64,000 nucleotides of DNA from Candidatus Levyibacteriota bacterium (GCA_963716145.1 OY970292.1:332951-396950); one strand, 5' to 3'; positions 1 through 19,322 are shown, counted from the first letter of the stretch. The notes: generated by a model from the letters alone, not told the origin. Translations and numbers: made by a program.

Positions 1-959
1 TTTGCTATATTAAGCATTTTCCAGGGATTTGCAGTCACCGTTTCAATTCCTATGTTTTTTACAAAATAAATATCAATTCCAGGAAGATTGGCCGATCCTC
101 CTGTTAATAAAATTTGAGAAATTGGGGATTCGTTTTTATACTTTTCGCTATAAAATGCTATCGCCTTTTTCACCTCAGAAATTATATTTGCAAAAATTGG
201 CTCAATTGCTATTCCTACTTTACCGTCTAAGCTTTTATCAGAGAATCCGTAAGTCTTTTTATATTCTTCAGCCTGACTTGTATTTAATCCAAAATTTGAG
301 GCTATTGCGTGTGTCAGTGCAACTCCACCCAAAGGAATAGAATAATTAAATACGATAACACCACTTTGTGCTATAGATAAAGATGTGTTTAAGGAGCCAA
401 TATTTATAATAAGAGAGGTCAAAGAATTATGACTTTTAATTATACCTCGTATTATGGAAAGCGTTTCTGTTTCAACCGCGACAACAGATAGTCCGGCTAA
501 TTCCAAGATTGTTTGATACCTCCTAATTAACTGATTGGGGGCAGCTACCAAAAGCACCTGCATTTTTTCTTCAGTAATAACCTCTTTGGGGCGTTTAAGA
601 ATTATCCAATCAAGCGTCATGGTATCAATTGCTGCGGGCACATGTTCTTCCGCTTCCCAATAAATCGCACTCGATAATTCCTTGTCTGACAATACGGGCA
701 TGTCGATTACTTTTGTAAAGATATGATGCTCTGGAAGAGCAATATTTACCTTGTTGGTGGTAATTTTAGCATCTGTTACTAATTTGCTTATGGTTTGAGC
801 CAACTCTTGATGGTCAAAAGGGGATTCCGACTGTATGCCTGGTGATGGATTGGGAACAGAAATAGCACTATTATATGACAAAGCATCATTCTCACGATTA
901 AGCCAGACAGCTTTTATCTTAGAAGTACCAATATCCAATCCAAATGAATTACTTTTCAT
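1..959 (-). CDS. pilM: Type IV pilus assembly ATPase-like protein PilM (actin-like). Partial: the 3' end lies beyond the window start. Not in the supplied ORF track.
   Basis: Manual translation of the minus strand from the ATG at 959-957 gives MKSNSFGLDIGTSKIKAVWL..., then ...LTGGSANLPGIDIYF. This is the characteristic PilM/FtsA-like GLDIGT and LTGG motifs. There is no stop before position 1. Its start overlaps the stop of the downstream gene (TAATG). Confidence 0.8.
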   Translation of the reverse strand, partial: MKSNSFGLDIGTSKIKAVWLNRENDALSYNSAISVPNPSPGIQSESPFDHQELAQTISKLVTDAKITTNKVNIALPEHHIFTKVIDMPVLSDKELSSAIYWEAEEHVPAAIDTMTLDWIILKRPKEVITEEKMQVLLVAAPNQLIRRYQTILELAGLSVVAVETETLSIIRGIIKSHNSLTSLIINIGSLNTSLSIAQSGVIVFNYSIPLGGVALTHAIASNFGLNTSQAEEYKKTYGFSDKSLDGKVGIAIEPIFANIISEVKKAIAFYSEKYKNESPISQILLTGGSANLPGIDIYFVKNIGIETVTANPWKMLNIA

Positions 960-1855
960 TATTTAGGTGAGAAAAAAATAAAAGGAAATAGTTCGACAGG
1001 CAGTTTGGGGTATCCGCGAAAACTAACAATCTTGCGTTGAGTAGTATCAGAGATTCCCGTTGCTGTTATAACAGTCCCCTGAGCCGGTAAATCAGCCGGA
1101 GCCTTTACTCCGGCAATCGTTGGAGCATATAAGGGAATAATCCTCATCAAAAGACCGGATGTCACAGCTATAGTATACTTATATCCAAAAGTCTTCCCGC
1201 CAAAAGTATCGCCAGGAGTCAGCACGCGTAGTGGTAGCGGTGAGGTTGTTGTTTGAAATTTATTTACAGCGGCACGCGCAGAACATGGATCCAGTAAATA
1301 CTCAGTGAGCTTAGGCGCTGCTTTTGATCCGGAAATTAATATAATTTCAAGAGCTGCTTGAGTCGTAGAGCTTTCCGGACCGGTATTGCATACCTCGCCC
1401 GCAGTACCCCAATTTACAGTTAAGTTTCCGCTCCATTGACCTGTAAAATCTGGGTGATTAGATAACCAAACATCAATTGGTTCATCTTTGAGAATAATTG
1501 CACCGTTATGAAGAACAATTTCAGTTCCTGAAAGCGGCTTAACTAATGTTGAGTAATGCGAATTATTGCCAAGTGATGTATCAGCAATAGGAGTAGGATT
1601 TGCCAAAGTACGTTCAATTCCTGCTTCTGCTGCTGAAAAGGCGCGTTGTGAACTCTCATCCTCACTTGATATACGAATATTTGCAGTGCTTCTTATGGCT
1701 ACCGACAATCCCACAGTTAATGCCACGACCATAACCATAAGAACAATAAGAAGGGTTTGTCCCGCCTGCCAACGACTGGCACTGGCGGGCAGGCCACTCT
1801 CCAACCGCTTTATTTGAAATTGTTTTATAAGTTGGCTTTTTTTATATTTTTTCAC
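959..1855 (-). CDS. PilX_N-type minor pilin / pilus assembly protein, with an N-terminal hydrophobic segment
   Basis: N-terminal RWQAGQTLLIVLMVMVVALTVGLSVAIRS....SSQRAFSAAEAGIE matches the PilX_N pattern (Q-G-x-L-L-V...LT..G...R...SQ.AF.AAEAG). It sits directly downstream of the giant adhesin and upstream of pilM in the same orientation. Confidence 0.55.
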   Translation of the reverse strand: MKKYKKSQLIKQFQIKRLESGLPASASRWQAGQTLLIVLMVMVVALTVGLSVAIRSTANIRISSEDESSQRAFSAAEAGIERTLANPTPIADTSLGNNSHYSTLVKPLSGTEIVLHNGAIILKDEPIDVWLSNHPDFTGQWSGNLTVNWGTAGEVCNTGPESSTTQAALEIILISGSKAAPKLTEYLLDPCSARAAVNKFQTTTSPLPLRVLTPGDTFGGKTFGYKYTIAVTSGLLMRIIPLYAPTIAGVKAPADLPAQGTVITATGISDTTQRKIVSFRGYPKLPVELFPFIFFSPK

Positions 1856-1951
1856 TGCAAATCTATCGTAACAAGCTCACAAGACTGTGTCAACCGCGTT
1901 CATGTAAACTTGAAATGATCAACCTAGATTGAAGCTACCTGAGGCATTAAA

Positions 1952-4900
1952 TCAAGAGGTATTAATATCTCTTCTTGCTGTTAGTTTTCTTAATCTCAAA
2001 CCCATCACCACTATCACAAGCCCCAGTACTCCAACAACCCCCAGTGTAACCGGTTCAAGCAAAGGGTTTCTCCTTTGTATCTTCACATTCAGTTCATATC
2101 TTTTAACATTGTCACTTGCTGCAAGAACCATTTTTTGTTCTCCTGTATCACCATTGTAGGCAATAATGACTGTGTGTTCGCCTTTTTCTACCTCTTTGAA
2201 TGTTGCTATACCTTTATCATTTGTCTTTGCTTGTCTTGGGGTAGAGTGGAGAGTAACCGAAGCCCCTCCAACCGGGTTATTCTCCTCATCTGTTACCTTT
2301 ACATCTACATCATAGGTCTTGTCCTGAGCGGAGTCGAAGGATTCTTTTTCCATCTGATTTTCTTTTGTTTTGCTGCTATCACACTTGATCTTTAGTTTCC
2401 AACCTACTTCCAGCAGAGAGGATGTTTTAAGCGTAGGGTAAGTGTCTTGATTAAGAGTTGCTATCTTTTTGTAGTCTTCTATTTTTCCCAGCTTTTCCTT
2501 AGCAATTGAGGAGAGGGAATCACCTTTCCTGACAGTGTAGTAGCTGCAGACTAAGCTTCCATCTCCTCCAGCTCCTGTCCCATCTCCCTCTTCATCAACA
2601 GGAGTTAAGCTTGATTGGGTTATCAGGTTACCGGTTGAATAGAATGGGAGAGTCTTGGCTGAGATCTGATTTGACCATTCTCCTGTGGCGCAGCCATTAC
2701 CTGCTCTTACTCTAAAGTAGTAGGTGGTTGAGGGGTCAAGGTTTTGGACTAGATAGGTTCTTGTTCCTTTCCCACCTATGTTGGAAGCAGCAAAGCTGTA
2801 TACTCCTGATTTGGTTCCGTATTCAAGTGTGTAGTGATCATATGGATCAGATGCATCGGTGAAGGTAAGAAGAATAGAACTCCCTCCTTTGGGAAGAGCT
2901 GAGTAGAGGTTAATAGGTATAGCTCCAACAGTGGTAGCTGTACAGACAGGTGAGTCTGTGGTTGATCGGGCAGGCTGAGTTTGGATATTGCATGAGGAGG
3001 GGTTAAAGCTCCAGTTGGTATTATTACCAGAGTCTATGCTATCACAAGTAGCTAGGATAACACTGTTGATATTGTGTGAATCCTGGACATCAAGGTATTG
3101 CATGTTACGTGGACCTTGAGGATCAATATTCCAGGCAGTACCAGGGGTTGAGGAACGCAGAGAGAGCTTGTTGCCCGAGTCTGTACCTCTGAGGGTGAGG
3201 GTGCCGAGGATTGTTTGGGTGGTACCTGAGGAGAAGGTGAGGGTTACCGGGGGTAGTTCTTGTCAGATTGTAGAAGGTGGTTGTATCATTGATGTGCTGA
3301 CCTATACCATCAAAAACAATTGTTCCATTATTGTGATTGAAAGTACCTCCGGTGTGATTAAAGTTTCCGCCCCCCCCTACAGTCATCGTGCCTGAAGGTG
3401 CGGTGAAACTACCTGCGGTAATATTAAAATTGTCAGTGAAATCCACCACTGTATAGTTTCCTAAATTTAATGTGGCTCCATCTACATTAAAACCACTTGT
3501 GGATACCAATCCAGTAAAACCAGATATAACTGCAGTAGTATTGAAATTGGATCCTCCCGCTGTGCTTCCAAGCGTCAGAGTACCGGTACCGGTTAATGTT
3601 CCGTTGAGTGTAATTCGGCCTGTTTGTGGATTATTTCCCAAAGGGAGCGTGCAATCTGCATTGACGGTTGAAAATCCATTATGAAGGTTTACTAAATTAA
3701 AAGTTGCATTATTACAACTCAAAGTTTGAACAGTTGTTCCATCAAACGTCACCGTCCCACCATTGGCATTGAAGGTACTACCTGAATCAGATATAAAGTT
3801 GGATGCGAAGGTTGCAGTGCCCTCTGGAGCCGTAAAGATAGCGCCTGAATTAAGGTTAAAGCCAGCATTTACATCAAATATAGTGTAGCTACCGAAATTG
3901 TAAGCACCATTAACAGTAAGAGCGTTCGAAACGAGGCCATTGAAACCCGAGAGAGCTCCTCCTGAATTTAGGGTAAGCGTAGTGATATTAGCCGTAAGTG
4001 TGCCACTTCCCGATAAAGTACCATTGAGCACCACATTCCCACCTGCTCCCACAGTAGGATTATTTCCCACAGGCAAATTACAATCACTGCTTATAGTTTT
4101 TGTCCCGGCAGGATTTGCAATAATGACAAAGTTGAAGACCGTATTATTACAGCTTGTAACACCGCCAGAGGTATCCAAAACAACTGTGCCGCCATTGGCA
4201 TTGAACGTAGTTCCGGAATTTATAGTGAATGTGCTCCCAAAGGTTGCAGTGCCCGACAGCGCCGTAAATACAGCCCCCGAACTAAGCGTAAATATGCCGT
4301 TCACATCAAACGTTGTATAACTGCCAAAATTATAATTGGCACCAGATAAGGTAAGTGCACCCGTTACCAAACCACTAAACCCTGATAAAGTTGAACCACT
4401 ATTAAGAGTTAATGCGTTTCCAGTTCCGGCTGTTCCCATAGTCAGTGTTCCAGAACCAGATAATGTGCCATTAAGCGTAAGATCTGCGTTGCTATCACTC
4501 CCTACTGTTGGATTATTGCCCAGAGGCAAGTTACAGGTGCTTCCAACTGTTTTAATAGTCCCTCCAGTATGCGCAAATGTAACTAAATTAAATGTAGTAT
4601 TATTGCAGCTCAGGGTAGCCGTTACTGCTCCATCAAATGTGATGGTCCCGCCATTGGCATTGAAGGTGGTGCCGGAATTGAGTGTAAAAGAACTGGCAAA
4701 GGTTGCAGTGCCCGACAGCGCCGTAAATACAGCTCCAGAGTTGAGTGTGAATGTTCCATTAATATCAAAAGTAGTGTAAGTGCCAAAATTATATGTAACG
4801 CTGCTAATCGTTACCTGTCCAGCAACCAGTCCACTAAATCCTGACAAGCTTGAACCACTGTTGAGCGTTAACAAGTTGGTTGTGGCTGTAGTCCCTATTG

Positions 4901-5591
4901 TTAGGGTACCAGTGCCCGACAAAGTACCACTTAGGGTAAGATCAGCATTTGCATCTGCACCAACAGTTGGATTATTTCCCAGAGGAAGGGAGCAGTTGCT
5001 ACTGACTGTTTTTGTGACATTCGTGGTATGCACAAAAGTTACAAGGTTAAATGTAACATTGTTACAACTTAGGGTAGCGCTTGCAGTCCCATCAAAAGTG
5101 AATGTCCCACTATTATGATTGAAAGTTGGTGACCCGGAGATAGTCATAGTATTTGATATTGTCGTTGAGACGCTAGATGCTGTAAATGTGCCTCCAGACA
5201 AAATAAAAATATTCAAATCCAGTGTTTGCCCCGCGGCTGTAAATGTGCCTCCCGCTTGTTGAAAAGTGGAAGTTGGAGTTAAAGATCTGGCCAATGTAAT
5301 AGTGCCAGAGTAAGTTGAGGCTATATCTATTGTGACTATTGTCCCACCAAAACCTGCATCAACAGTGCTATTCTTAGTTGAAGTAGAATTAAAAATCGCC
5401 GTGTCCGCTGAGGCAGGACAGACATCAGTAGTCCAGTTGGTACAATCTGACCAGTTATTGGTTGATCCTCCTCCATCCCATGTGAGAGAAGCAGCATAAG
5501 ATTTATTAAGGGGAGCGGAAAACAAAAAGAGAGCCAGAAGAATACAAACGGAAAAAAGAGAAATGATAAAGGAACTCAAACGGCGGTGCAT
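1952..5591 (-). CDS. Giant secreted cell-surface adhesin, ~1210 aa. N-terminal signal peptide; at least four ~148-aa Pmp-like beta-helical repeats (FxxN...GGT[IV]); FN3 domain; LysM domain; CarbopepD_reg/Ig-like domain; C-terminal TM anchor. The reading frame is interrupted by a 1-nt indel in a G5 run at 3249-3253. ORF-track pieces 3123..5591 and 1952..3103 are one gene.
   Basis: The 822-aa ORF ends in nonsense sequence (PHLLLRYHPNNPRHPHPQRY...). The alternate frame reads ...TLTFSSGTTQTILGTLTLRGTDSGNKLSLRSSTPGTAWNIDPQGPRNMQYLDVQDS..., continuing in frame into the 383-aa ORF. Repeats TFNANGGTITFDG / TFNHNSGTFTFDG recur every ~148 aa. TTYYFRVRAGNGCATGEWS marks the FN3 domain and YTVRKGDSLSSIAKEKLG the LysM domain. 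VKVTDEENNPVGGASVTLHSTPRQAKTNDKGIATF is a CarbopepD_reg-like domain. The C-terminus is LLEPVTLGVVGVLGLVIVVMGLRLRKLTARR. Confidence 0.7.
3280..5100. repeat. About four tandem ~445-bp repeats inside the adhesin gene, encoding the Pmp-like repeat units. They also explain the spurious + strand ORFs here.
   Basis: The protein repeats are near-identical 145-150-aa blocks: ...LSCNN.TFNLV....LPLGNNPTVG...LTLNSG..LSGF.GLV....NFG.YT.FD.N..F.L.SGA.FTA..GTATF...F...SGTTFNANGGT. Confidence 0.6.
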
Positions 5592-5668
5592 ATTTTAAAT
5601 AAGCAGTAACTAACATATAGTATGCTATTTTGAAGCAGAAAGTCAATGGAGAGGGTAGGAAGATTGAA

Positions 5669-6259
5669 TTATTTACTGGAGTTTCTCAAAGTAACCGAGG
5701 TTTGGAATGGAATTGAACCGGTAGCCTCAACTAAATTACCAGCGTTTTTAGAATCCAACGTGAAGCTAAAATTAATAGTTGGCGGATCGTCAGGACTAGC
5801 CTGAGAACATGTAAAAGAACACTGAGTTACAGTCACAGCATTTGTATCAACGAGTGAGGCCCCGTTTGAAGCGATAGTACCCGTTGAACCTGTAGAACAT
5901 ACAAAAGTAGTCTTACTGTTGTCCGAGAGAGACCTGATGGCAATAGGACCATCTACTGCAGAACAAGCAGAATCCAGACTCTTAGCGTACCTTACTTGTT
6001 TTACTATTTGAGATAGTGCGTTGTTGCCATTTTGCTTCAGACTCACCAATCTATCTGACTTACTGCTTGCACGAAGAGTCGCAAAAATAATCGATACAAT
6101 AACTGTTCCTGTTGCTGCGAACAATGCTACAATTACCACCAATTCTACCAGGGTAAAGCCCCGCGGGGAATTTCCAATTTGCAATCTCCAATTTCCAATC
6201 CGCTCTTTATTGGTTGATATTTGATATTTGAAATTTGATATTTGAAATTTGATATTCAT
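5669..6259 (-). CDS. Prepilin-type (class III signal) pseudopilin / minor pilin
   Basis: RGFTLVELVVIVALFAATG follows the G/FTLVE prepilin peptidase motif with Glu at +5. The true start is uncertain. The in-track ATG at 6259 puts a 14-bp tandem DNA repeat in the leader. An in-frame TTG at 6184 would give a short leader MQIGNSPRG|FTLVE. Confidence 0.7.
   Translation of the reverse strand: MNIKFQISNFKYQISTNKERIGNWRLQIGNSPRGFTLVELVVIVALFAATGTVIVSIIFATLRASSKSDRLVSLKQNGNNALSQIVKQVRYAKSLDSACSAVDGPIAIRSLSDNSKTTFVCSTGSTGTIASNGASLVDTNAVTVTQCSFTCSQASPDDPPTINFSFTLDSKNAGNLVEATGSIPFQTSVTLRNSSK
6216..6256. repeat. 14-bp tandem repeat (gatatttgaaattt x2, plus partial copies) at the 5' end or upstream of the pseudopilin gene
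   Basis: Read directly: ttgatatttgatatttgaaatttgatatttgaaatttgatattcat. Confidence 0.5.
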
Positions 6260-6708
6260 GGTCCTTGTACCGGATTAGCAGTGGATAGACAAGAGGTAAT
6301 TTGACTTTTATGACAAAAACTACCGCCAGAACATTTTCCATCACTCCAAGAAACTGTTGCTGTCGCTTTTGCTACGCTTGAAGCACAGCCGGGAGTTTGT
6401 TCAATTGAAACCGACCGGATAAAATTATCCACATTTTTAATTGTGCATGAGGGAGAAGAAGTAGGCAAAGTTGAGGCCCCTTTGCTCAAACAGAAATTTC
6501 CGCTATAGCCTGTAAAGGCTGCATAGTTATTATTTCTAGTATTGCGAGTAATCTCAATTCCCTCCTGGGCATACTGGGTAGCAAGGCTTTGATCCCTACC
6601 ATATCCGGCGTTACTCAAAGACGATGCAACAATTACAGCAATACCTGATAAGATAATACCAACTACGCTTAGTGCTAATAGTGATTCAATTAGTGTTTGA
6701 CCCTTCAT
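6256..6708 (-). CDS. Prepilin-type pseudopilin. Start re-set to MKGQTLIESLL. The ORF-track start at 6822 lies inside the upstream gene.
   Basis: MKGQTLIESLLALSVVGIILSGIAVI has the class III signal (G|QTLIE). An ATG at 6708 lies 5 nt downstream of the stop of the preceding pseudopilin gene. The C-terminal region is Cys-rich (disulfide D-region-like). Confidence 0.7.
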   Translation of the reverse strand: MKGQTLIESLLALSVVGIILSGIAVIVASSLSNAGYGRDQSLATQYAQEGIEITRNTRNNNYAAFTGYSGNFCLSKGASTLPTSSPSCTIKNVDNFIRSVSIEQTPGCASSVAKATATVSWSDGKCSGGSFCHKSQITSCLSTANPVQGP

Positions 6709-6712
6709 GCTT

Positions 6713-7165
6713 TTATGGTAAGGAAATGTTTCCAGTATTGTTAATAATAATTGACTTGGTTTTTCCATAACCGCTAATAGTGATTGTACCAGGAGCTGAA
6801 ACCGTACCTGTGGATACATCAAAAAGAACGCTTGTCAGACCGCTTCCAAAACTTACTTGCCCGGGTAGTTTTTTTTGAGTAATCAGATGATCACCTGCGC
6901 ATACTACATCAAGATGATAATCCTGACCCGAAGGGGTTATAACCACTTTATATCCATCGAGAGGATTGGTTCCGCAGACAGAAGGCTTAACCTGGGAAAT
7001 AGCTCTTGACCGGGCAATATTCAAAAGACTCGAAAACCCGGACATACCGGATCCAAACACCTGAGAACTATTGTATGAACTGAAAACCACAACACTCATC
7101 ATGGAAATTATGCCGATGAATGCAAAAACAATTAGAAGCTCCATAAGAGTAAACCCTTTTTTCAT
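6713..7165 (-). CDS. Prepilin-type pseudopilin / minor pilin
   Basis: MKKGFTLMELLIVFAFIGIISMMSVVVF has the canonical KGFTLxE leader-plus-helix. It overlaps its neighbours by 4 nt, suggesting translational coupling. Confidence 0.75.
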   Translation of the reverse strand: MKKGFTLMELLIVFAFIGIISMMSVVVFSSYNSSQVFGSGMSGFSSLLNIARSRAISQVKPSVCGTNPLDGYKVVITPSGQDYHLDVVCAGDHLITQKKLPGQVSFGSGLTSVLFDVSTGTVSAPGTITISGYGKTKSIIINNTGNISLP

Positions 7166-8998: not shown

Positions 8999-9023
8999 TT
9001 TATACATTTTTAACATTTTATGC

Positions 9024-11110: not shown

Positions 11111-11386
11111 TTATCTTAATATCTCCGGGAGTTGATCTTGAGAGAATTGAAGTTTGGTTTCCCGGACAGCTTCTCTACATACTTCAATTGACGCCTTGCC
11201 AAAAAGTTTGGCGTATTGTTCAACCAAATCTGTAAGCACGTTTTTGGCATCCCCTTTAATCTTCACGTCATTTAGATTCTCTATTTCAAGTCCGGAAACT
11301 TTTCTGGCTTGCTCCAAAGCAATAGGGCCTATTATTACTTCCTGATCCTTTATTATTTGACTTACTATTTGAGAATAGGGTTCCAT
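11111..11386 (-). CDS. Hypothetical small protein, 91 aa
   Basis: Compact ORF sitting between the kinase and the membrane protein. No recognisable motif. Confidence 0.4.
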   Translation of the reverse strand: MEPYSQIVSQIIKDQEVIIGPIALEQARKVSGLEIENLNDVKIKGDAKNVLTDLVEQYAKLFGKASIEVCREAVRETKLQFSQDQLPEILR

Positions 11387-11391
11387 ATTTG

Positions 11392-12219
11392 TTATCTGCT
11401 CACTCTTTTTTGCTCTTTTGTATCAAAATTGTTAACTCCAAATGCTATAAGCATCATTGCTGTTGGCAACAAAATGTCAACCCAGTGACCATTGTAATAA
11501 GTTCCAACAGTTGTTGTATAGGAAAACGAAAAGTCCGCCAAATAGAGGACAACAAATCCAAGAAGTGTACTTTTAATCGGAAGCTTGTAACGCCCGCCTA
11601 AATAGTCAAATGATAAACCATAGATGAGCAGAGCAAGCGTTAAGATCATCAAATCTCCGAGAGGATATGCAAGGTCAAAAAAGAGTTTTAAGCTTTCTTC
11701 ACCGAAGGGAATAGCTCCTCCCCTGGCTACAACAATAAGCATATAGTAAGAAGCGATAATAGCTAAAACCGGAATAACAAATAAAAGAATTTTTCCCCGG
11801 AAATGATTTAATGAAAAACGTGCACCGGTCGCTTTTGATAAACTAACAATACCAATTATCAAAAAGGGGAAAGACAGGCTATAACCTACATCTGCAAAAG
11901 ACGGGTAGGGAACTTCTACCTTACTTATTATATTATAATATATGGACCAAAACATTTGACCCACTCCCCATGAAGTGATACCAAGCGAAATAAAAAATAC
12001 CGCCTGCCCGACCTTACTCTTAAGTCCCCCCCATTGCCGGGACTTAATTATTCCTGAGACACCGCCGATAAGGGGAATTAAACCAAATGCAAACTGGTAC
12101 CAATAATTTGCTGGAGTTTCTTTAATGCCGCGGAAGTAAAAAGCCGAACCCCATATAAGAATCAGGCAATAGTAAAAGAAGATAATTTTTGACTCTTTAC
12201 TTATATTTGTTAAAGGCAT
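11392..12219 (-). CDS. Polytopic integral membrane protein, unknown function
   Basis: About 8 hydrophobic helices, Trp/Tyr-rich. No recognised catalytic motif. Confidence 0.5.
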   Translation of the reverse strand: MPLTNISKESKIIFFYYCLILIWGSAFYFRGIKETPANYWYQFAFGLIPLIGGVSGIIKSRQWGGLKSKVGQAVFFISLGITSWGVGQMFWSIYYNIISKVEVPYPSFADVGYSLSFPFLIIGIVSLSKATGARFSLNHFRGKILLFVIPVLAIIASYYMLIVVARGGAIPFGEESLKLFFDLAYPLGDLMILTLALLIYGLSFDYLGGRYKLPIKSTLLGFVVLYLADFSFSYTTTVGTYYNGHWVDILLPTAMMLIAFGVNNFDTKEQKRVSR

Positions 12220-12284
12220 AGATTGTGTCTAGCTATTATTAGTATGCGCCTCGCAAATTAAATGTCAAGTGCATATTTCACATA

Positions 12285-13793
12285 TTATCTAACTACCCAT
12301 ACAGTCTCCATTGAATTATCTCTTGCAGAAATATGTACGTTAGGATAGCTTTTTAGTTTTATGTAATACTCAACGATCTCTTTGGTAAATTCTTCACCTT
12401 TTATTGTTGTAGGTATTCCCGGAGGAAATGGCGTTATATACTCAGCAGCTATTCTCCCTACGGCTTTGCTCAATGGGACTCTCTCAATCTGATACATCAA
12501 TAATTTTGTGACATCACTTAACTCTAAAATTCTGGGAATATCGGTTGGAATTTTGAGATTAAATTTTGCTGCTATTTTTCCCCTCTTTGGAATTTGCACT
12601 ATTTGCTCAAAAGCATTTACTGTAACTTGAACGTCATTCAATGTCGCGCTGAATGGGACCAAAAGCAAAACTGTTCCTATATTGTATTCCTCTACGATGA
12701 TTTTATATTTTCTCTCAAGAAGTTTTGCTACTTCATACCCATTAAAGCCTGCTTTAGCAACATCCACAATAACCTTTGTTTCATCTCGTTCATAAACCGG
12801 AGGGTGCTCTCTCTTCAACTGAGCGGTACCAACAACCTCAAGTCCGTCTATGCGGCTTATTTCCTCGGCTAGGCGCTTGGCAACCATAAGCATGTGATCC
12901 AATTTCTTTTTACCTTTTTTCTCCATCATTTCTCGTGCGGCGTCCAGAGAAGCAAGAAGTATATATGATGGACTACTTGTTCCCAAACTTCGGAAAGAGT
13001 CCATCAGCAAGTCCGCGTTTATTTTGCCATCTTTCCAATGAATCATTCCCGATTGCTGAAGAGAACCTCCTTGTTTGTGAGTGCTTTGTACGCATATATC
13101 TGCTCCTGCGTTCATGGCTGATGTAGGCAATTTGTCTGAGAAATGCAAGTGAGAACCCCACGCCTCATCTACAAATACTATTAATTCCGGATATTTTTTC
13201 CGTATGGTGGAAATGATTTTTTTTAAGTTTACAGACATTCCCTCGTATGTGGGATTTATAAGAAGTAGGACTTGAGGTTTTGTTTTGGCAATTGCCTCAT
13301 ATATTTCCTTTTCCGCATTTGGAAGGAACAATTGACGCTTTTGATCAATATGAGGTTTAAGAAAAATGAGATTTATACCATAGTCTTCACAAGCTGCCAC
13401 TATAGATCTATGTACGTTTCTCCCCGCTAACACTCTAAGGTTGGGAATTTGCTTGCTTAATGCCCGTAAAACCATAAAATTACTGCCTGTTGTACCGTTT
13501 ACAGAAAAAAGAGTATGATCAGCTCCATAAGCTTTTGCCGCATGATCATAGATCCTTTTAAATATACCGGACGGTTCAGATGGATATCCCAATGATTCAT
13601 AAGAAATAGAAATATCACTTGCGTACGGATTTTTTACTCGCGAGGACAGCGAATCAATTGAAGGAGTGCACCAGCGGATTGCTTTGTGCGTTTTATGATT
13701 GAGGGCATGTGTTAGGTGAGATCTCGCAGGTCTTATTTTTGCTTTACCTATATTTAGTGAAACTGCGGATAATAAATTTTTTTTAATTATCAT
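12285..13793 (-). CDS. PLP-dependent Orn/Lys/Arg decarboxylase, fold I (SpeA-like, Bacillus type)
   Basis: STHKQGGSLQQSGM carries the PLP-lysine motif SxHK of the OKR_DC_1 family. About 500 aa. Confidence 0.7.
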   Translation of the reverse strand: MIIKKNLLSAVSLNIGKAKIRPARSHLTHALNHKTHKAIRWCTPSIDSLSSRVKNPYASDISISYESLGYPSEPSGIFKRIYDHAAKAYGADHTLFSVNGTTGSNFMVLRALSKQIPNLRVLAGRNVHRSIVAACEDYGINLIFLKPHIDQKRQLFLPNAEKEIYEAIAKTKPQVLLLINPTYEGMSVNLKKIISTIRKKYPELIVFVDEAWGSHLHFSDKLPTSAMNAGADICVQSTHKQGGSLQQSGMIHWKDGKINADLLMDSFRSLGTSSPSYILLASLDAAREMMEKKGKKKLDHMLMVAKRLAEEISRIDGLEVVGTAQLKREHPPVYERDETKVIVDVAKAGFNGYEVAKLLERKYKIIVEEYNIGTVLLLVPFSATLNDVQVTVNAFEQIVQIPKRGKIAAKFNLKIPTDIPRILELSDVTKLLMYQIERVPLSKAVGRIAAEYITPFPPGIPTTIKGEEFTKEIVEYYIKLKSYPNVHISARDNSMETVWVVR

Positions 13794-13874
13794 TTGCTTT
13801 TAATAGTTACTTCATAATTAACATACCGGGATTGTGTTAACTTAGTGATAAAAATATAATACCAAAGATAATAA

Positions 13875-14765
13875 TTAGGCCCCAATAGTCTGAATAATAG
13901 CTAATTTTTCTTTCAGAAAAATACGCGCAAGTATTATTGTAGGTAAAGAAGACGCTCCGCTAAGAATGGCAACAACGCTTGTAAACGATGTGCTTGCATA
14001 TCCCAAGCTTATAGCTAAATAGGCAACGGCTTCACCTAACCCAATAAGCCATAAAAATTTCCACGCCCCCGGTTTAATATCTGTTAGATCTACTTTATGG
14101 AATCTTGAGATTATATAAGCAGCAATTGTCATAAATATAAACATCAAAAGCGAGTATATGGTCCAGTCTTTTCCTCCAGAAAAATTGTCCCAACCTAATG
14201 TCCATACTGTAGCAAGTGCTGTAGCTATTGCGATCTCCTTGACTCCTGGTGTGCCAACGATACGAATGCGTTTGGAACGCCACGCTGTGAGATCAAGATT
14301 AAGAAGTAGTACACCGCTAAAAATTAAGATCAATGCCGGCACTAAATTGGCTTTCAGCGTTTCTCCAAATACTAAAACCGATAATAATGCTACCCAACCG
14401 GTAAAAGAAGCAAAGATTGGGCTTAAAATCGCAACTTTTCCCTTTTCAAAGCCTTCGTAGCCAAAAAAATAAACAACTGCTTGGAGGCTTCCAAAAAAAA
14501 TAAGCCCTAGCCATTCCTGCAGGCTGGTGGGTAATGTAATAGAATTTTTAAATATGTATATATTGCCTAAAACTATAAAAAAAAGAATTATCGAACCAAG
14601 TACATGAGCCCATACCAAGCTAGAAATGGTTCCAATTTTATCAACTGCTTTTTTTGTTGCAAATTCCGAAAAACCCCAACCAAACATTCCTCCAACCCCG
14701 GCCGTAATTGCAATCAGTAATTCGTTCTGCATATTAATATTATGGGTACTTAAATACTCTGACAA
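13875..14765 (-). CDS. EamA/DMT-family transporter (10 TM)
   Basis: Two EamA-like halves with hydrophobic helices throughout. Confidence 0.65.
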   Translation of the reverse strand: MSEYLSTHNINMQNELLIAITAGVGGMFGWGFSEFATKKAVDKIGTISSLVWAHVLGSIILFFIVLGNIYIFKNSITLPTSLQEWLGLIFFGSLQAVVYFFGYEGFEKGKVAILSPIFASFTGWVALLSVLVFGETLKANLVPALILIFSGVLLLNLDLTAWRSKRIRIVGTPGVKEIAIATALATVWTLGWDNFSGGKDWTIYSLLMFIFMTIAAYIISRFHKVDLTDIKPGAWKFLWLIGLGEAVAYLAISLGYASTSFTSVVAILSGASSLPTIILARIFLKEKLAIIQTIGA

Positions 14766-14847: not shown

Positions 14848-15231
14848 ATGGTTCAAAAAATTCTTGTGGTTGATGACGATCTGTTTATTAGGGAAATTTA
14901 CATTGAGGTTCTTAAAAACGAAGGGTACGAAGTTGATTGGGCTATAAATGGGGAAGAAGGATTTGAGAAATTGCAAAAGGGAGGATATTCGTTAACGCTG
15001 CTTGATTTAATGATGCCCAAATTGGACGGATTGGGAGTATTGAGCGCTCTTTTAACAAATCCGCCCAAAGCAAAAAACGGCCCAATTATTATGCTTACAA
15101 ATAGTGGCCCGGACTATCTTGTGGAGGAGGGTCTTAAAAAAGGCGCAGCTTCATTTCTCGTCAAAGCAGATCTTAATCCTGACCAATTGCTGGAAAAGGT
15201 TAAAAACTTTTTAGAGACTGCAAGACAATAA
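14848..15231 (+). CDS. Single-domain response regulator, receiver only (CheY/PilH-like)
   Basis: ILVVDDD...LLDLMMPKLDG: acidic pocket, phospho-acceptor Asp and a downstream K. No output domain. Confidence 0.8.
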   Translation: MVQKILVVDDDLFIREIYIEVLKNEGYEVDWAINGEEGFEKLQKGGYSLTLLDLMMPKLDGLGVLSALLTNPPKAKNGPIIMLTNSGPDYLVEEGLKKGAASFLVKADLNPDQLLEKVKNFLETARQ

Positions 15232-15233: not shown

Positions 15234-16436
15234 CTACTTGATAGAAGAAATCAGGCCATAAATCGGAGTAATTATTGAGAAGATCAAGAACCCCACCCCA
15301 ACTGCCAAGAGAACTATGATAGCAGGCTCAAGAAGTGTAGTAAGATTTTTAACTGTCTGGTCTACTTCACGCTCAAAATATTCTGAAGAGTGAATTAAAG
15401 ACTCATCAAGCTTTCCTGTCTGCTCACCAATTTTTACCATTTCAACAACCATGGGAGGGAATAGGGGAGATGCAGCCATTGCGTTACCCATAGTTATTCC
15501 TTTTTCCACTCTTTCTGAAATCAACACTATCGCATCTTTATAAAGAACATTCCCAACCACATCAGAACTCTTTATTAATGAATCCACAACCAAAGAACCG
15601 GCACCTATTAAAAGCCCAAGGGTCCTAGTAAATTCTGCCATCATTGTATACATTATTAATCTCCCAAAAAGGGGAATTTTTAAAATAAGTCCATCTACAA
15701 TAAACCGACCGGACTTTGTTTTATACCATTTTCTGAAATAGTAAACACCGCCAATTATACCAATAATTATTATATACCAACTATTAACCATAAATGTAGA
15801 AATAGCCAATACTATTTTTGTGGATAAAGGCAAAGGCAAATTAATACTAGTATAAAGAGAAGTAAGCTGGGGCATAACAAAAATCATCATAATTATGATA
15901 ACTAGAATCATTATTGTGACCACAATTAGCGGATACATTAATGCTCCTTTTATTGTTCTTTGAAGCTTGTCTTGTTTTTCCAAATTATCAGAAAGCCTAA
16001 GAAGCACCTTGTCCAAAAGTCCTGAAGATTCTGAGGTCCGGATAAGTGATACATAAATTGGCGGGAACAAATCCGGATATTTTTGCAGCGTTTCGGAAAA
16101 TACTTTACCGCTCTCAACTCCGGTAATAATATTCTGCACCACTTCTGCCATAGTAGAATTTTGGATTTGATTCCTAACAATCTCCAAAGCCTGCATAAGC
16201 GTCAAGCCTGATGAAAGCATGCTTGCAACTTGCCTGGTAAAAAAAATGCGGTCTTGAAGCTTGGGCTTATTTAAGAAATTAAATCTTGCAAAACCTCTTT
16301 TAGCGGCAGGAATAATTTTGATGGGAACCAGACTGTGGCCTCTTAAATATTTGGCTACTTCTCGGGCATCTTTAGCATCAATTAGACCCCGGACAACATT
16401 GCCATCCGGAGAAATAGCATGGTAGTATAATTTCAT
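15234..16436 (-). CDS. pilC: Type IV pilus inner-membrane platform protein PilC (GspF family)
   Basis: Two T2SSF repeats (…LSSGLTLMQALEIV… / …RTLGLLIGAGSLVVDSL…). 400 aa, 3 TM. Confidence 0.85.
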   Translation of the reverse strand: MKLYYHAISPDGNVVRGLIDAKDAREVAKYLRGHSLVPIKIIPAAKRGFARFNFLNKPKLQDRIFFTRQVASMLSSGLTLMQALEIVRNQIQNSTMAEVVQNIITGVESGKVFSETLQKYPDLFPPIYVSLIRTSESSGLLDKVLLRLSDNLEKQDKLQRTIKGALMYPLIVVTIMILVIIIMMIFVMPQLTSLYTSINLPLPLSTKIVLAISTFMVNSWYIIIIGIIGGVYYFRKWYKTKSGRFIVDGLILKIPLFGRLIMYTMMAEFTRTLGLLIGAGSLVVDSLIKSSDVVGNVLYKDAIVLISERVEKGITMGNAMAASPLFPPMVVEMVKIGEQTGKLDESLIHSSEYFEREVDQTVKNLTTLLEPAIIVLLAVGVGFLIFSIITPIYGLISSIK

Positions 16437-16439: not shown

Positions 16440-17506
16440 TTACCCTATTAACCTCAACAACTCTCCCTCCCGTAAGGTGTAAGATTTGGCATTTTCAAGG
16501 GAAATTGTGCCGGTTCGCACAAGAGCCGCAAGAGATTCATCAAGAGTCGCCATACCCATATCTTTGGAGGTTTGGATAACAGAATCAATAAGGTGTGATT
16601 TTCCATCTCTTATATTGCTGGCAACTGCGGAGGTTCCCAGCATTATTTCAACAGCTGGAATTCTTCCTCCTCCAATCTTTGGCAAAAGTCTCTGGGAAAT
16701 AATTCCTTTAAGCGTTGCCGCAAGCTGAATCCTGACTTGAGACCTCTGATCCGAAGGAAATGAATCAACTATACGGTCTATGCTTTGAGCTGCGGAATTT
16801 GTGTGAAGGGTTGAGAAAACCAAGTGACCGGTTTCGGCAAGTGTAATAGCAGCCTGCATTGTCTCAGGATCCCGCATTTCTCCAACCAAAACAACATCAG
16901 GATCTTCCCGAAGAGATGATCTCAAGGCCAAACTCCAAGAGTGCGTATCTGTTCCCATTTCCCTTTGCGAGATAATACTACTGCCTTTTGGATAAACGAA
17001 CTCAATCGGGTCTTCAATCGTCAGAATATGTTCAGATCTGGTCATATTTATTTCATTTAAAATTGCTGCGAGCGTAGTTGATTTTCCATGCCCGGTGGGC
17101 CTGCGACAATAACAAAACCTTGTCTTAATCCCGAAAAAGTGTGGCAAATTTTAGGAAGACCCAGTTGCTCAATTGAACGGACACTAGGAGTTAAAAAACG
17201 CATTACCGCTGACACGGTTCCCCGCTGAAAATAAGCGTTCACCCTAAATCTTCCCAACTCCTCATCAGGAATTTCTGAAAAGCTAAATGAAAAATCCAGC
17301 TCTTTATTTGTCAGAAAAAGTTCTTTTTGTTCAGGGGTCAAAAGCGAAAAAACCATTGTCTCGATCTCAGCCGCTTTTAGCAAGGAGCTCGTTGTGAGAG
17401 TACGAAGCACTCCGTCAATACGGAAAGTCGGCGCAATACCAACCATCAAATGAAGATCCGATGCTTTATTTTTAACTGTAAGCGATAGCAATTCTTTAAT
17501 ATCCAT
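16440..17506 (-). CDS. pilT: Twitching-motility retraction ATPase PilT. The reading frame is interrupted by a 1-nt deletion at the Walker A box near 17090-17100. The ORF-track pieces 17057..17506 and 16440..17147 are one gene.
   Basis: N-terminus MDIKELLSLTVKNKASDLHLMVGIAPTFRIDGVLR. The expected VIVAGPTGHGKSTT reads as VIVAGPPGMENQ in frame 1 and PTGHGKSTTLAAILNEIN in frame 3. The rest is the canonical PilT C-terminus (…GHLVFSTLHTNSAAQSIDRIVD…). Confidence 0.8.
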
Positions 17507-17576
17507 ATTTAGTTTATGGCCAATCGCTTATAGCTTATGGGAACTATTTGCCATACGCTATTTGCTATACGCCAAT

Positions 17577-19322
17577 TTATTCCTGCGCAACGCGCAGCAC
17601 TTCTTCAATCGTAGTTTCTCCATGGACAACTTTCAAGTATCCATCTTGTTTTAAAGTAATCATACCTTCAGCAATTGCCTGTTTTTCAATACTTAGATTA
17701 TCCGCTTGGGTAATAATTAAATGCGATATTTTTTCACTTGCGGGCATCACTTCATATATTCCAATCCTCCCAATATATCCCAAATTTGAGCATCGATCGC
17801 ATCCTTTACCTCGATACAATTTTATTTCATCTTTTTCGCTTAATAGATTTCCCAAAACGCCTTTTATTTCAGCGATTAGAGCACTCGGCGGGGAAAACTC
17901 CACTTTGCATTCATTACATATCTTGCGCACTATCCTTTGGGCCGCAATTGCGTTTACGGTTGAGGCAAGCAAAAATGACTCAGCTCCTAAATCCATGAGT
18001 CGGGGAAGCGCACCTGCAGCATTTGAGGTGTGAAGAGTTGAGAAAACCAAATGGCCCGTGAGAGCGGCTTGAATTGCCAAATCAGTTGTCTCTTTATCTC
18101 TAATTTCCCCGACCAAAATAATATTGGGGTCTTGTCTCAAGAAAGCGCGAAGCCCTGATGCGAAAGTCAATCCAACTGCTGGATTTATTTGTACTTGATT
18201 AACTCCCGCAATCTCATATTCAACCGGGTCTTCAAGTGAGGCGATATTAACCTTTGTGCTATTGAGGCGGGACAAAATAGAGTAAAGTGTCGTTGTTTTA
18301 CCGCTTCCTGTCGGTCCGCAGACCAAAATAATGCCATGCGCTCGTAGAGTTGCTGTCTCCAAGTTCTTCAAAGAATTTCCGATCAAACCAAGCTCTTGAA
18401 GAGTTGGTACTCCTCCTGATTTTCTAAGAAGCCTCATTACAATCTTTTCTCCCCTTACTGTTGGTATGGTCGAGACACGTAGGTCCACCTCATCTGATCC
18501 AACTTTAAAATTCAATCTGCCGTCTTGCGGAATTCTCCTCTCATCTATCTTAAGTTCTGCTAAGATCTTTATTCTTGAGATAAGCTGCTCTTCAACATTT
18601 CTTGGAAGACTCAATTTATCATACAAAATGCCGTCAATTCTATAACGCACACGAACCCGGTCTTCCTGAGGTTCAATGTGTACATCCGATGCTCTTGATG
18701 TAACCGCGAATTCAAGAATTGTTGACACTATCTTGGCAATCGGTGCATCATTTATAATTTGCGCAATTTGCTTGCTGTCAACTGTGTGTTTTGTAGTAAA
18801 TTCCTCAGTCTCTTTAATAGCTTCATTTACTTCTCCGACAAGACCTTGTTTATATTGCAGATCAATAGCTTTTTTTACTTCTTCTGGATCGGCAGCGAAT
18901 GCTTTAATATCGTATCCTGTTTTTTGTCTTACAAAAGCAACTGAGTCCAAATCCAAGGGATTTCCCATCGCAATTGATAGCACTTTGTTTTTGTCATCAT
19001 ATAAAAAGGGGATCAAGGAGAGCCTCTCTACAACTCCCTGAGGAAGAAGCCCTAAAGCCTGAGGAGAAAAGGAAACTGTTGTAAGATCTACATAATCAAT
19101 TCCCACCAATCTTGCAACAGCCCGAGCAATTTTATCATTGGAAACTATTTTCAAATCTTTTATGATTTCAGTTGGAGATTTACCCGTGGATGCGCTTTTT
19201 ACCTGAATATCATCATATTGCTCTTTACTAAGTTGTCCATCAGCATATAAGATGTCTACTGCGGATTTTGCGTCATCCAGTTGAGACTGGTTTGATTGCG
19301 GTATTTGGATCGTATCGGGCAT
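17577..19322 (-). CDS. pilB: Type IV pilus assembly (extension) ATPase PilB (GspE family)
   Basis: T2SSE_N domain. Walker A GPTGSGKTTTLYS. Asp/His boxes. Tetracysteine CNECKVEF...CDRCSNLGYIGRIGIYE. Confidence 0.85.
   Translation of the reverse strand: MPDTIQIPQSNQSQLDDAKSAVDILYADGQLSKEQYDDIQVKSASTGKSPTEIIKDLKIVSNDKIARAVARLVGIDYVDLTTVSFSPQALGLLPQGVVERLSLIPFLYDDKNKVLSIAMGNPLDLDSVAFVRQKTGYDIKAFAADPEEVKKAIDLQYKQGLVGEVNEAIKETEEFTTKHTVDSKQIAQIINDAPIAKIVSTILEFAVTSRASDVHIEPQEDRVRVRYRIDGILYDKLSLPRNVEEQLISRIKILAELKIDERRIPQDGRLNFKVGSDEVDLRVSTIPTVRGEKIVMRLLRKSGGVPTLQELGLIGNSLKNLETATLRAHGIILVCGPTGSGKTTTLYSILSRLNSTKVNIASLEDPVEYEIAGVNQVQINPAVGLTFASGLRAFLRQDPNIILVGEIRDKETTDLAIQAALTGHLVFSTLHTSNAAGALPRLMDLGAESFLLASTVNAIAAQRIVRKICNECKVEFSPPSALIAEIKGVLGNLLSEKDEIKLYRGKGCDRCSNLGYIGRIGIYEVMPASEKISHLIITQADNLSIEKQAIAEGMITLKQDGYLKVVHGETTIEEVLRVAQE

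What the first reader, a model, noticed from the sequence alone, without database searches (positions are those of the whole stretch)
1..19322. Complete type IV pilus module with a pilus-associated giant adhesin in a minor-pilin operon laid out like fimU-pilVWXY1
Read in transcription order on the minus strand, the locus runs:
- pilB, pilT, pilC (ATPases and platform)
- receiver-only RR (plus strand), GAF-HK
- two major pilins, pilD
- four pseudopilins
- a ~1200-aa adhesin, then a PilX_N protein, then pilM

The four minor pilins, PilX and a very large non-pilin protein occupy the position PilY1 takes in Pseudomonas, where PilY1 is the tip adhesin and calcium-dependent retraction regulator. Here that slot holds an unrelated, repeat-rich protein with LysM and FN3 domains.

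No secretin (pilQ) or pilN/O/P was seen in the window. That is what a monoderm-type or CPR-type pilus would look like. For a small-genome, possibly host-associated bacterium, this locus is the most plausible host-attachment and DNA-uptake machinery in the window.
Basis: partly seen in the sequence, partly recalled or inferred. Interest (0 to 1): 0.7.

Follow-up and report, generated by a model that had tools for sequence, protein, structure and literature searches.

The report
CPR pilus locus with inserted surface-protein gene
This is the standard secretin-less type IV pilus gene cluster of Levybacteria-like ultrasmall (CPR) bacteria, and the "giant adhesin" in it is a membrane-anchored surface protein whose gene was inserted there in this lineage only, so nothing beyond its position ties it to the pilus.

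Summary
The pilus module is real. On the minus strand it runs pilB, pilT, pilC, two pilins, pilD, four minor pilins, a PilX_N protein and pilM. Weak pilN- and pilO-like genes lie just past the window edge, and there is no secretin. This gene order is conserved in 104 comparable Microgenomates loci, and secretin-less pili are already described for CPR bacteria.

The "~1200-aa adhesin" is two ORFs (822 and 383 aa). They join into 1212 aa only if one C is removed from a C-run at 3240-3253. pilT, rarA, gyrA and an ABC permease carry the same kind of 1-nt frameshift at G/C runs, so assembly error is the likely cause.

The restored protein has:
- a Sec signal peptide
- four ~150-aa repeats, predicted as a beta-solenoid
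- fn3, LysM and Ig-like domains
- a C-terminal membrane anchor

That is a wall-spanning cell-surface fibre, not a pilus subunit or a PilY1 relative. Its closest intact homologues sit in non-pilus neighbourhoods. None of the 104 PilX loci contains a homologue, and the nearest relative has a 75-nt spacer in its place. A conserved promoter-like element precedes pilX.

The pilus module is ordinary. The pilus link of the adhesin rests on position alone. Other lineages carry a different family of large secreted proteins in the same slot, and that family is the better PilY1 analogue.

The parts
17577..19322 (-). pilB, pilus assembly ATPase (581 aa)
   Evidence: Pfam T2SSE 434 bits plus MshEN N-terminal domain.
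16440..17506 (-). pilT, retraction ATPase. It is split into two ORFs by a 1-nt frameshift at the CCC run 17097-17099. Restoring one C gives 355 aa.
   Evidence: Frames and DNA. The restored protein hits T2SSE at 153.8 bits. It is 92% identical over 100% of its length to an intact 355-aa orthologue, P0241.
15234..16436 (-). pilC, inner-membrane platform protein (400 aa)
   Evidence: Pfam T2SSF, two copies, 199 bits.
14848..15231 (+). Receiver-only response regulator (127 aa), divergent from pilC
   Evidence: Pfam Response_reg 81 bits. Found in the same position in relatives L005 and L006.
11111..14765 (-).
   Evidence: Pfam. The 275-aa, 91-aa and kinase genes travel together just upstream of the pilin or pilD gene in several relatives, for example L005-L007, L015, L025.
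9581..11056 (-). GAF-HisKA-HATPase_c histidine kinase (491 aa)
   Evidence: Pfam. Lies immediately upstream of the pilin or pilD gene in many Levybacteria loci.
8469..9488 (-). Two tandem major-pilin genes, 9024-9488 and 8469-8924, 97% identical. A terminator-like hairpin lies at 8978-8997 after the first.
   Evidence: N_methyl 35 bits each, with the KG|FTLVE motif. Duplication period 555 nt. Hairpin. L005, L006 and L007 show one pilin gene.
7604..8452 (-). pilD, prepilin peptidase (282 aa)
   Evidence: Pfam A24_N_bact 105 bits and Peptidase_A24 37 bits.
5669..7581 (-). Four minor pilin genes:
- mp1 7162-7581, GspG/ComP-like.
- mp2 6713-7165, GspH-like.
- mp3 6256-6711, weakly PilV/GspI-like.
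- mp4 5669-6259, no family hit, conserved C-terminal ...LRN motif.
   Evidence: Class III signal motifs G|FTLxE or G|QTLIE are readable in the sequences. Pfam GspH 27.8 bits; other family hits are sub-threshold. The order mp1-mp4 then PilX is conserved.
1952..5591 (-). Surface-protein ('adhesin') gene, interrupted by a 1-nt frameshift in a C-run at 3240-3253. The restored protein is 1212 aa:
- signal peptide 1-34
- four ~150-aa Cys-containing repeats, 157-750
- junction domain
- fn3, LysM and Ig-like CarboxypepD_reg domains
- transmembrane anchor about 1176-1203
   Evidence: Frames. Pfam. Repeats and hydrophobic segments. The AF2 model of the 822-aa part has pLDDT 89.8 and a regular short-strand solenoid pattern; the out-of-frame tail 789-822 has pLDDT below 50. 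The intact homologues P0002-P0004 read straight through the junction.
5617..5646 (-). Promoter-like match (TTGACT, 16-18 nt spacer, CATACT/TACTAT) about 25 nt upstream of the adhesin ATG
   Evidence: Consensus scan only, with the sequence shown. Not evidence of function.
1865..1893 (-). Conserved promoter-like element (TTGACA, 17 nt spacer, TG-extended TACGAT) directly upstream of the pilX-like gene
   Evidence: Scan. The same element is present in L005, L006 and L007. The 53-nt block is 87% identical to L005.
959..1855 (-). PilX_N / GspK-like tip minor pilin: 298 aa from the GTG, 281 aa as called in public data. It lacks Glu5.
1..959 (-). pilM, first 319 codons; the gene runs off the window
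   Evidence: Pfam PilM_2 155 bits. The full 344-aa gene, followed by pilN-like and pilO-like genes, is on L004.

Best explanation
The region is the ordinary type IVa-like, secretin-less pilus gene cluster of a Levybacteria-like member of the Microgenomates (CPR/Patescibacteria).

**How the pilus works (from established knowledge of the families).** PilD cleaves the class III signal peptides of the two major pilins and the minor pilins. PilB drives assembly on the PilC/PilM-N-O platform. The GspH/I/J-like minor pilins and the Glu5-less PilX/GspK-like protein prime and cap the filament. PilT retracts it. No secretin is needed because there is no outer membrane.

**What the large gene is.** In this lineage only, a 3.6-kb gene has come to lie in the short spacer between the last minor-pilin gene and a conserved promoter-like element in front of pilX-pilMNO. 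It encodes one member of a large CPR family of Sec-exported beta-solenoid surface proteins. By architecture, the protein is anchored in the cytoplasmic membrane by its C-terminal helix. It passes the wall through Ig-like, LysM (peptidoglycan-binding) and fn3 modules. It projects a beta-solenoid of about 750 residues outward, which makes it a cell-surface fibre with a probable adhesive role.

**Link to the pilus.** The link is positional. At most the protein is co-expressed by read-through from the minor-pilin genes and acts as a close-range adhesin after pilus retraction.

**Frameshifts.** The frameshifts in this gene and in pilT are most likely consensus errors of a long-read assembly.

**Shown:** gene content, synteny, the insertion, domain architecture, the fold class, and the frameshift pattern. 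**Inferred:** topology, adhesive function, transcription units, and the frameshifts being errors.
For: **Module identity:** Pfam hits.

**Conserved order.** The order pilB-pilT-pilC ... pilD-mp1-4-PilX-PilM recurs in 80 genome loci and 80 metagenome loci. A detectable mp4 homologue lies within 300 nt of PilX in 77 of the 104 loci that have at least 3 kb of upstream sequence.

**Already described.** CPR pili without PilQ are in the literature: PMC6744442 and PMC7143001.

**Insertion.**
- L005 is collinear with the window on both sides but has a 75-nt spacer in place of the gene.
- 0 of 104 loci hold a homologue of the large protein.
- Homologues P0002, P0003 and P0004 lie next to obg, CTP synthase and paralogous surface-protein genes respectively.
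- The gene's GC3 (0.34-0.375) is within the range of other window genes (0.25-0.41).

**Architecture.**
- fn3, LysM and CarboxypepD_reg domains.
- Signal peptide and C-terminal hydrophobic segment, both conserved in the homologues.
- Solenoid model at pLDDT 89.8.

**Frameshifts as errors.**
- Five 1-nt frameshifts at G/C runs occur in 41 kb: the adhesin, pilT, rarA (20218), gyrA (about 28785) and an ABC permease (about 40765).
- Each gene is otherwise intact.
- The corrected PilT is full length and 92% identical to an intact orthologue.
Against: - No transcript data exist. No terminator-like site was found on either side of the large gene, so co-transcription with the minor pilins remains possible.
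- The promoter calls are consensus matches. The region has 63 such matches against 51.5 expected by chance.
- Raw reads were not available, so the frameshifts could be real.
- No intact copy of this exact pilT or adhesin was found in the protein collection.
- Other lineages do carry large secreted proteins in exactly this slot. The position is therefore not arbitrary and could reflect functional coupling.
Confidence: 0.72

Rival explanations
1. The large protein is a genuine pilus-associated tip adhesin, a functional analogue of PilY1. It would be co-transcribed with the minor pilins and presented by the pilus.
For: - It is on the same strand, with 77-nt and 96-nt gaps to mp4 and pilX and no terminator-like site between them.
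- Other Microgenomates place large secreted lectin-like proteins in this same slot.
- Beta-solenoid modules are known at pilus tips (ComZ of Thermus, from my own knowledge).
Against: - The C-terminal transmembrane anchor with a basic tail, plus LysM, ties it to the membrane and wall.
- It has a Sec-type signal peptide, not a prepilin-type one.
- It has no PilY1/PilC domain.
- It lacks the C-terminal domain shared by the slot proteins of other lineages.
- The family is encoded away from pilus genes in relatives, and 0 of 104 PilX loci contain it.
- It precedes pilX, whereas pilY1 follows pilX.
Confidence: 0.08
2. The frameshifts are real. Both the adhesin gene and pilT would be recent pseudogenes, so the pilus could not retract and the adhesin would be truncated to a secreted 822-aa fragment.
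For: - The deposited sequence carries the frameshifts, and the public gene call is the 822-aa ORF (P0001).
- No intact identical copy was found.
Against: - The same kind of 1-nt shift at G/C runs hits gyrA, which is essential, as well as rarA and an ABC permease, all within 41 kb.
- Each affected gene has a single lesion and is otherwise fully conserved.
- The contig naming of the relative (contig_N) and the single 1.14-Mb contig suggest long-read assemblies. This point is inference.
Confidence: 0.15
3. The C-run in the adhesin gene is a phase-variation switch: slipped-strand mispairing would turn expression of the full-length anchored protein on and off.
For: - The frameshift lies in a homopolymer run within a surface-protein gene.
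- Neisseria pilC is phase-variable through a poly-G tract (from my own knowledge).
Against: - The run is only 3-5 nt, which is short for slippage.
- Identical lesions in housekeeping genes argue for a technical cause.
- The window has 28 G/C runs of 5 nt and 169 of 4 nt, so this tract is not special.
Confidence: 0.03

Closest known systems
Secretin-less type IV pilus clusters of CPR/Patescibacteria (Meheust et al. 2019, PMC6744442; Microgenomates genome Ch65, PMC7143001; Saccharibacteria T4P-1/T4P-2, PMC12206443)
   Same: - The same components: PilB, PilT, PilC, PilD, pilins, minor pilins, PilM/N/O.
- They are co-located, and PilQ is absent.
- The PilX-type protein has an enlarged C-terminal beta domain. 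Here the domain looks jelly-roll-like on weak fold matches. [quoted passage not shown]
   Different: This genome has a tandem duplicate of the major pilin gene. It also has a kinase/decarboxylase block between pilC and the pilins, shared only with close relatives. The extra surface-protein gene between mp4 and pilX was seen in no other locus.
fimU-pilV-pilW-pilX-pilY1-pilE operon of Pseudomonas aeruginosa, and the PilY1/minor-pilin priming complex of Myxococcus
   Same: The minor pilins follow the H-, I-, J-, K-like order, with a Glu5-less PilX/GspK-like last member. A large non-pilin gene sits inside the block.
   Different: - No PilY1 C-terminal propeller domain.
- The large gene precedes pilX rather than following it.
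- It carries a C-terminal membrane anchor and LysM.
- It is not conserved with the operon (0 of 104 loci).
[quoted passage not shown]
   Same: It is a beta-helix or solenoid surface adhesin encoded beside a monoderm type IV pilus locus without being a pilin.
   Different: There is no significant sequence or fold match (Foldseek E 1.4, probability 0.06). The domain make-up differs, and the tapirin-pilus proximity is conserved across a genus, whereas here it is a single case.
Beta-helical adhesins of autotransporter and two-partner secretion systems (Ag43, TibA, EtpA, HMW1)
   Same: A predicted long parallel beta-solenoid, rich in T/G/N/S, with repeat units. JGI names some homologues 'fibronectin-binding autotransporter adhesin'.
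   Different: There is no beta-barrel translocator or TPS domain, and anchoring is by a C-terminal transmembrane helix in a bacterium without an outer membrane. All fold matches are non-significant (E at least 0.23).

Membership tests
Type IVa pilus machinery, monoderm/CPR type | PilB-type assembly ATPase | tested here: met
   T2SSE 434 bits plus MshEN.
Type IVa pilus machinery, monoderm/CPR type | PilT-type retraction ATPase, intact | tested here: inconclusive
   The domain is present but the gene is split by a 1-nt frameshift. The corrected protein is full length and 92% identical to an intact orthologue. Reads would be needed to settle it.
Type IVa pilus machinery, monoderm/CPR type | PilC platform protein and PilD prepilin peptidase | tested here: met
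   T2SSF x2 at 199 bits. A24_N_bact 105 bits and Peptidase_A24 37 bits.
Type IVa pilus machinery, monoderm/CPR type | Pilins with a class III signal peptide (G|FTLxE) | tested here: met
   The motif is readable in six genes. N_methyl is above the cut-off in the two major pilins and mp1.
Type IVa pilus machinery, monoderm/CPR type | PilM-PilN-PilO alignment complex | tested here: inconclusive
   PilM is clear at 155-175 bits. The PilN-like and PilO-like genes lie outside the window on L004. They have the right size, order and single N-terminal transmembrane helix, but only sub-threshold Pfam hits (E 0.025 and 0.0018).
Type IVa pilus machinery, monoderm/CPR type | No secretin (PilQ) | tested here: met
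   No Secretin hit in any ORF scanned in the window or on L004. trmD follows the pilO-like gene. The rest of the genome was not seen.
fimU-pilVWXY1-type minor-pilin/PilY1 operon | GspH/FimU-like, GspI/PilV-like and GspJ/PilW-like minor pilins | tested here: inconclusive
   mp2 hits Pfam GspH at 27.8 bits, above the 21-bit cut-off. mp3 has only sub-threshold PilV/GspI hits. mp4 has no family hit.
fimU-pilVWXY1-type minor-pilin/PilY1 operon | PilX/GspK-like tip pilin without Glu5 | tested here: inconclusive
fimU-pilVWXY1-type minor-pilin/PilY1 operon | Large protein with the PilY1/PilC C-terminal propeller domain | tested here: not met
   Pfam scans of both parts of the large protein gave fn3, LysM and Ig-like domains, and nothing for the 822-aa part. 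There was no PilY1/Neisseria_PilC hit. The model is a solenoid, not a propeller.
fimU-pilVWXY1-type minor-pilin/PilY1 operon | Large gene conserved with the minor-pilin genes across relatives | tested here: not met
   0 of 104 loci have a homologue. L005 has a 75-nt spacer instead.
CPR beta-solenoid surface-protein family (homologues P0002-P0120) | Sec signal peptide, ~150-aa Cys-containing repeats and a conserved junction motif (TLTF..G.TQTI..LRSS.PG..W.ID), followed by variable C-terminal modules | tested here: met
   327 homologues at E <= 1e-5. The alignment shows invariant Cys, Gly and Pro positions. The sequences match through the junction. Repeats.
Tapirins | Sequence or fold similarity to the tapirin C-terminal beta-helix domain | tested here: not met
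   Foldseek against 6n2c gave E 1.4, probability 0.06.

The most novel reading that the evidence does not exclude
The spacer between the last minor-pilin gene and pilX may be a recurrent slot in Microgenomates for large secreted proteins that work with the pilus tip.

- At least 13 loci from Gottesman-, Woese-, Levy- and related bacteria encode large proteins there. These have variable lectin-like N-termini (F5/8 type C, CBM96, TSP1) and a shared C-terminal domain of about 200-250 aa ending W-x-E-V-A-P.
- That family would be the CPR counterpart of PilY1.
- The window's beta-solenoid protein would then be an independent capture into the same slot. It would be co-expressed with the tip pilins and would act as the close-range adhesin of a two-step attachment: the pilus tethers, then a surface fibre locks on.
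Probability: 0.18. Interest if true: 0.55.

Novelty: new member of a known kind. Interest (0 to 1): 0.25.

Why it matters
Type IV pili are the best-supported host-attachment and DNA-uptake devices of CPR bacteria, so a new tip adhesin would be worth knowing about.

The evidence here says the pilus cluster is the lineage's standard one. The large protein is a relocated member of a common CPR surface-protein family, so the finding adds one more example rather than a new mechanism.

Two practical points follow:
- This assembly carries frequent homopolymer frameshifts, so split genes in it should not be read as pseudogenes.
- The comparative survey turned up a different, recurrent family of large secreted proteins directly upstream of pilX. 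That family is a better candidate for a CPR PilY1 analogue and could be tested in cultivable systems.

Tried and rejected
- **Exact-sequence look-ups.** Look-ups of the window's PilX (298-aa form), PilC and the 822-aa ORF found nothing. Only the 281-aa PilX call was on record. It gave a 5-kb short-read contig that stops at window 3223, 18-30 nt short of the frameshift, so it cannot settle the frameshift.
- **Corrected PilT.** A homologue search found no 100% identical intact copy; the best was 92%.
- **Target-site duplication.** A 7-nt word (TTCAATC) occurs at both ends of the inserted segment and once in L005. About 0.4 such matches are expected by chance between two 80-nt stretches, so I do not count it.
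- **Flanking DNA.** The DNA flanking the adhesin homologue in L002 shows no similarity to the window's flanks. Only the coding sequence matches, at 69-70%. The route of relocation is therefore unknown.
- **Fold searches.** The solenoid model gave no significant match (best E 0.23). The PilX model gave none with Foldseek (best E 0.008, picornavirus jelly rolls). A profile search of PDB sequences gave nothing meaningful. The afdb50 library was not available.
- **Tandem Repeats Finder.** It saw no DNA-level repeats in the adhesin gene. The repeats are visible only at protein level.
- **Composition.** There is no sign of foreign origin. GC3 is native, and the higher GC comes from second codon positions.

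Full report
**What is in the sequence.**

ORF listing and Pfam scans show these genes on the minus strand of 1-19322:

| Gene | Coordinates | Note |
|---|---|---|
| pilB | 17577-19322 | |
| pilT | 16440-17506 | two overlapping ORFs in different frames |
| pilC | 15234-16436 | |
| EamA transporter | 13875-14765 | |
| Orn/Lys/Arg decarboxylase | 12285-13793 | |
| 275-aa membrane protein | 11392-12219 | |
| 91-aa protein | 11111-11386 | |
| GAF histidine kinase | 9581-11056 | |
| Two pilin genes | 9024-9488, 8469-8924 | 97% identical |
| pilD | 7604-8452 | |
| Four prepilin-type genes | 7162-7581, 6713-7165, 6256-6711, 5669-6259 | |
| Two large ORFs | 3123-5591 (822 aa), 1952-3103 (383 aa) | |
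| PilX_N protein | 959-1855 | |
| pilM (start) | 1-959 | runs off the window |

A receiver-only response regulator lies on the plus strand at 14848-15231. It omits the four genes between the regulator and the kinase, and it treats the large protein and pilT as intact.

**The large protein and the frameshifts.**

The 822-aa ORF ends in about 45 residues of out-of-frame sequence. The reading frame of its homologues continues in the next frame. Removing one C from a C-run at 3240-3253 gives a 1212-aa protein. That protein aligns through the junction with the intact homologues P0002, P0003 and P0004.

pilT is restored to 355 aa by adding one C at 17097-17099. The result is 92% identical over its full length to an intact orthologue.

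The same kind of lesion, a 1-nt shift at a G/C run, also splits three other genes:
- rarA/mgsA at 20218
- gyrA at about 28785
- an ABC-2 permease at about 40765

That makes five such lesions in 41 kb, one of them in an essential gene, and each gene is otherwise intact. This points to consensus errors of a long-read assembly rather than gene decay. I could not check reads. The one short-read contig that matches the window (L004, 100% over 1-3223) stops just short of the site.

**What the large protein is.**

The restored protein has the following parts:
- A Sec-type signal peptide, cleaved around SYA|A.
- Four repeats of about 150 aa, each with two conserved cysteines. The region is rich in T, G, N and S.
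- A conserved junction motif.
- fn3, LysM and a CarboxypepD_reg-type Ig-like domain.
- A C-terminal hydrophobic helix followed by a basic tail. The homologues share this.

AlphaFold2, run with 36 homologues, models the 822-aa part at mean pLDDT 89.8 as an uninterrupted series of 3-6-residue strands, i.e. a beta-solenoid. Confidence collapses in the out-of-frame tail. Foldseek found no significant match. The non-significant list is dominated by beta-helical adhesins and S-layer proteins.

The architecture reads as a type I membrane protein. The anchor sits in the cytoplasmic membrane, the Ig-like, LysM and fn3 modules cross the wall, and the solenoid projects outward. This topology and an adhesive role are inferences.

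**Is it tied to the pilus?**

A homologue search gave 327 relatives at E <= 1e-5, widely spread in CPR and carrying varied C-terminal modules. The three closest with the same architecture sit in these neighbourhoods:
- P0002 (64% identity): beside obg and a GDSL lipase gene.
- P0003 (56%): beside CTP synthase and a LysM protein gene.
- P0004 (53%): beside two paralogous surface-protein genes.

None is near pilus genes. P0002's contig also carries the orthologous pilus locus (L005). That locus is collinear with the window from pilC to pilM, but only 75 nt separate the last minor-pilin gene from pilX.

I then fetched 80 loci from GTDB genomes and 80 from metagenomes around PilX homologues. Their record titles are mostly Levybacteria, with other Microgenomates among them. 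I mapped the window's proteins onto these loci. Of the 104 loci with at least 3 kb of upstream sequence:
- 77 have a detectable mp4 homologue within 300 nt of pilX.
- None contains any homologue of the large protein.

The gene's GC3 is typical of the window. The simplest reading is a lineage-specific relocation or duplication of a native family member into this spacer.

**Transcription.**

A TTGACA, 17-nt spacer, TG-extended TACGAT element lies at 1865-1893, just upstream of pilX. It is conserved in L005, L006 and L007, with the start codon about 10 nt after the -10 box. This suggests that pilX-pilMNO has its own, possibly leaderless, promoter.

A second promoter-like match precedes the adhesin ATG, at 5617-5646. 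No terminator-like hairpin flanks the gene. These are consensus matches only, so operon structure remains open.

**The pilus module itself.**

- *Minor pilins.* mp2 passes the Pfam GspH threshold. mp1 looks GspG/ComP-like, mp3 is weakly PilV/GspI-like, and mp4 has no family hit.
- *Beyond the window edge.* L004 shows pilM complete, then bitopic 179-aa and 247-aa proteins with weak PilN and PilO hits, then trmD.
- *Secretin.* None was seen anywhere.

Secretin-less, co-located T4P genes are an established CPR trait (PMC6744442 and PMC7143001).

**A different family in the same slot.**

In 5 of 63 GTDB loci, and in further metagenome loci, a large secreted protein is encoded directly upstream of pilX. 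Its N-terminal modules vary: three F5/8 type C domains plus SdrD_B in L017, and TSP1 in L080. In L073 the slot protein is only 404 aa, and a separate 931-aa CBM96 protein is encoded just upstream of it.

These proteins share a C-terminal domain of about 200-250 aa ending W-x-E-V-A-P (blastp E from 6e-6 to 6e-45). The window's protein has no similarity to them. This family, not the window's protein, looks like the CPR analogue of PilY1. I did not take it further.

**Verdict.**

The pilus module is real and complete, but it is ordinary for this group. The "giant adhesin" is a frameshift-interrupted gene, probably through assembly error, for a membrane-anchored beta-solenoid surface protein. Its presence in the minor-pilin region is unique to this lineage, and its pilus association is unproven. 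It is best filed as a new member of a known kind, of low to moderate interest.

Noticed in passing
L017:5886-9830, L075:7397-9937, L072:6336-9899, L073:8760-9974, L080:5838-9965. Also L138, L139, L148, L149 (directly upstream of pilX), L159:4980-5567, L140:4803-7121, L146:2764-4191: Large Sec-exported proteins are encoded directly next to the PilX gene in several Microgenomates lineages. Their N-termini vary (F5/8 type C, TSP1) but they share a C-terminal domain of about 200-250 aa ending W-x-E-V-A-P. In L073 a separate 931-aa CBM96 protein (5961-8756) lies just upstream of the 404-aa slot protein. The family has no Pfam match for that shared domain. It is a candidate PilY1-like partner of the tip minor pilins.
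   Followed up: partly
window 3240-3253, 17097-17099, 20218-20221, about 28785-28789, about 40760-40775: Five 1-nt frameshifts lie at G/C homopolymer runs within 41 kb. They split the adhesin gene, pilT, rarA/mgsA, gyrA and an ABC-2 permease. This is most likely a long-read consensus error pattern, so split genes in this assembly should not be read as pseudogenes.
   Followed up: partly
window 1855-1893; L005:9948-10000; L006 and L007 just upstream of position 10001: A conserved TTGACA, 17-nt spacer, TG-extended TACGAT element sits with the pilX start codon only about 10 nt downstream of the -10 box. This suggests a separate, possibly leaderless, pilX-pilMNO transcript.
   Followed up: partly
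window 8468-9488: The major pilin gene is tandemly duplicated (555-nt period, 96% DNA identity, 3-4 amino-acid differences), with a terminator-like hairpin at 8978-8997 between the copies. The closest relatives show a single pilin gene here.
   Followed up: partly
window 9581-12219 and 14848-15231; L005-L007, L015, L019, L025, L032: A three-gene set (275-aa membrane protein, 91-aa protein, GAF histidine kinase) sits immediately upstream of the pilin or pilD genes in many Levybacteria loci. The closest relatives also have a receiver-only regulator divergent from pilC. This may be a lineage-specific pilus regulatory module with no DNA-binding output domain.
   Followed up: no
L059, L062, L063, L065, L066, L067, L070, L074, L083, L133 (Daviesbacteria-type loci), between PilX and PilM: These loci carry an extra block of about 2.9 kb between pilX and pilM. 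It holds one or two more pilin-like genes and a protein of about 600 aa whose N-terminus resembles PilX_N (GQILV...). It has no Pfam hit.
   Followed up: no
window 42183-43118: A XerC/D-type tyrosine recombinase (Phage_integrase plus SAM-like N-terminal domain) lies among housekeeping genes. tRNA-Leu(CAA) at 54809-54894 was the only RNA gene found in the window.
   Followed up: no
L087:1-4996 (minus strand): In one metagenome relative, a protein of more than 1665 aa (its C-terminus reads ...YDPFGNWRAAN) is encoded divergently upstream of pilX in place of the minor pilins. It was not examined.
   Followed up: no
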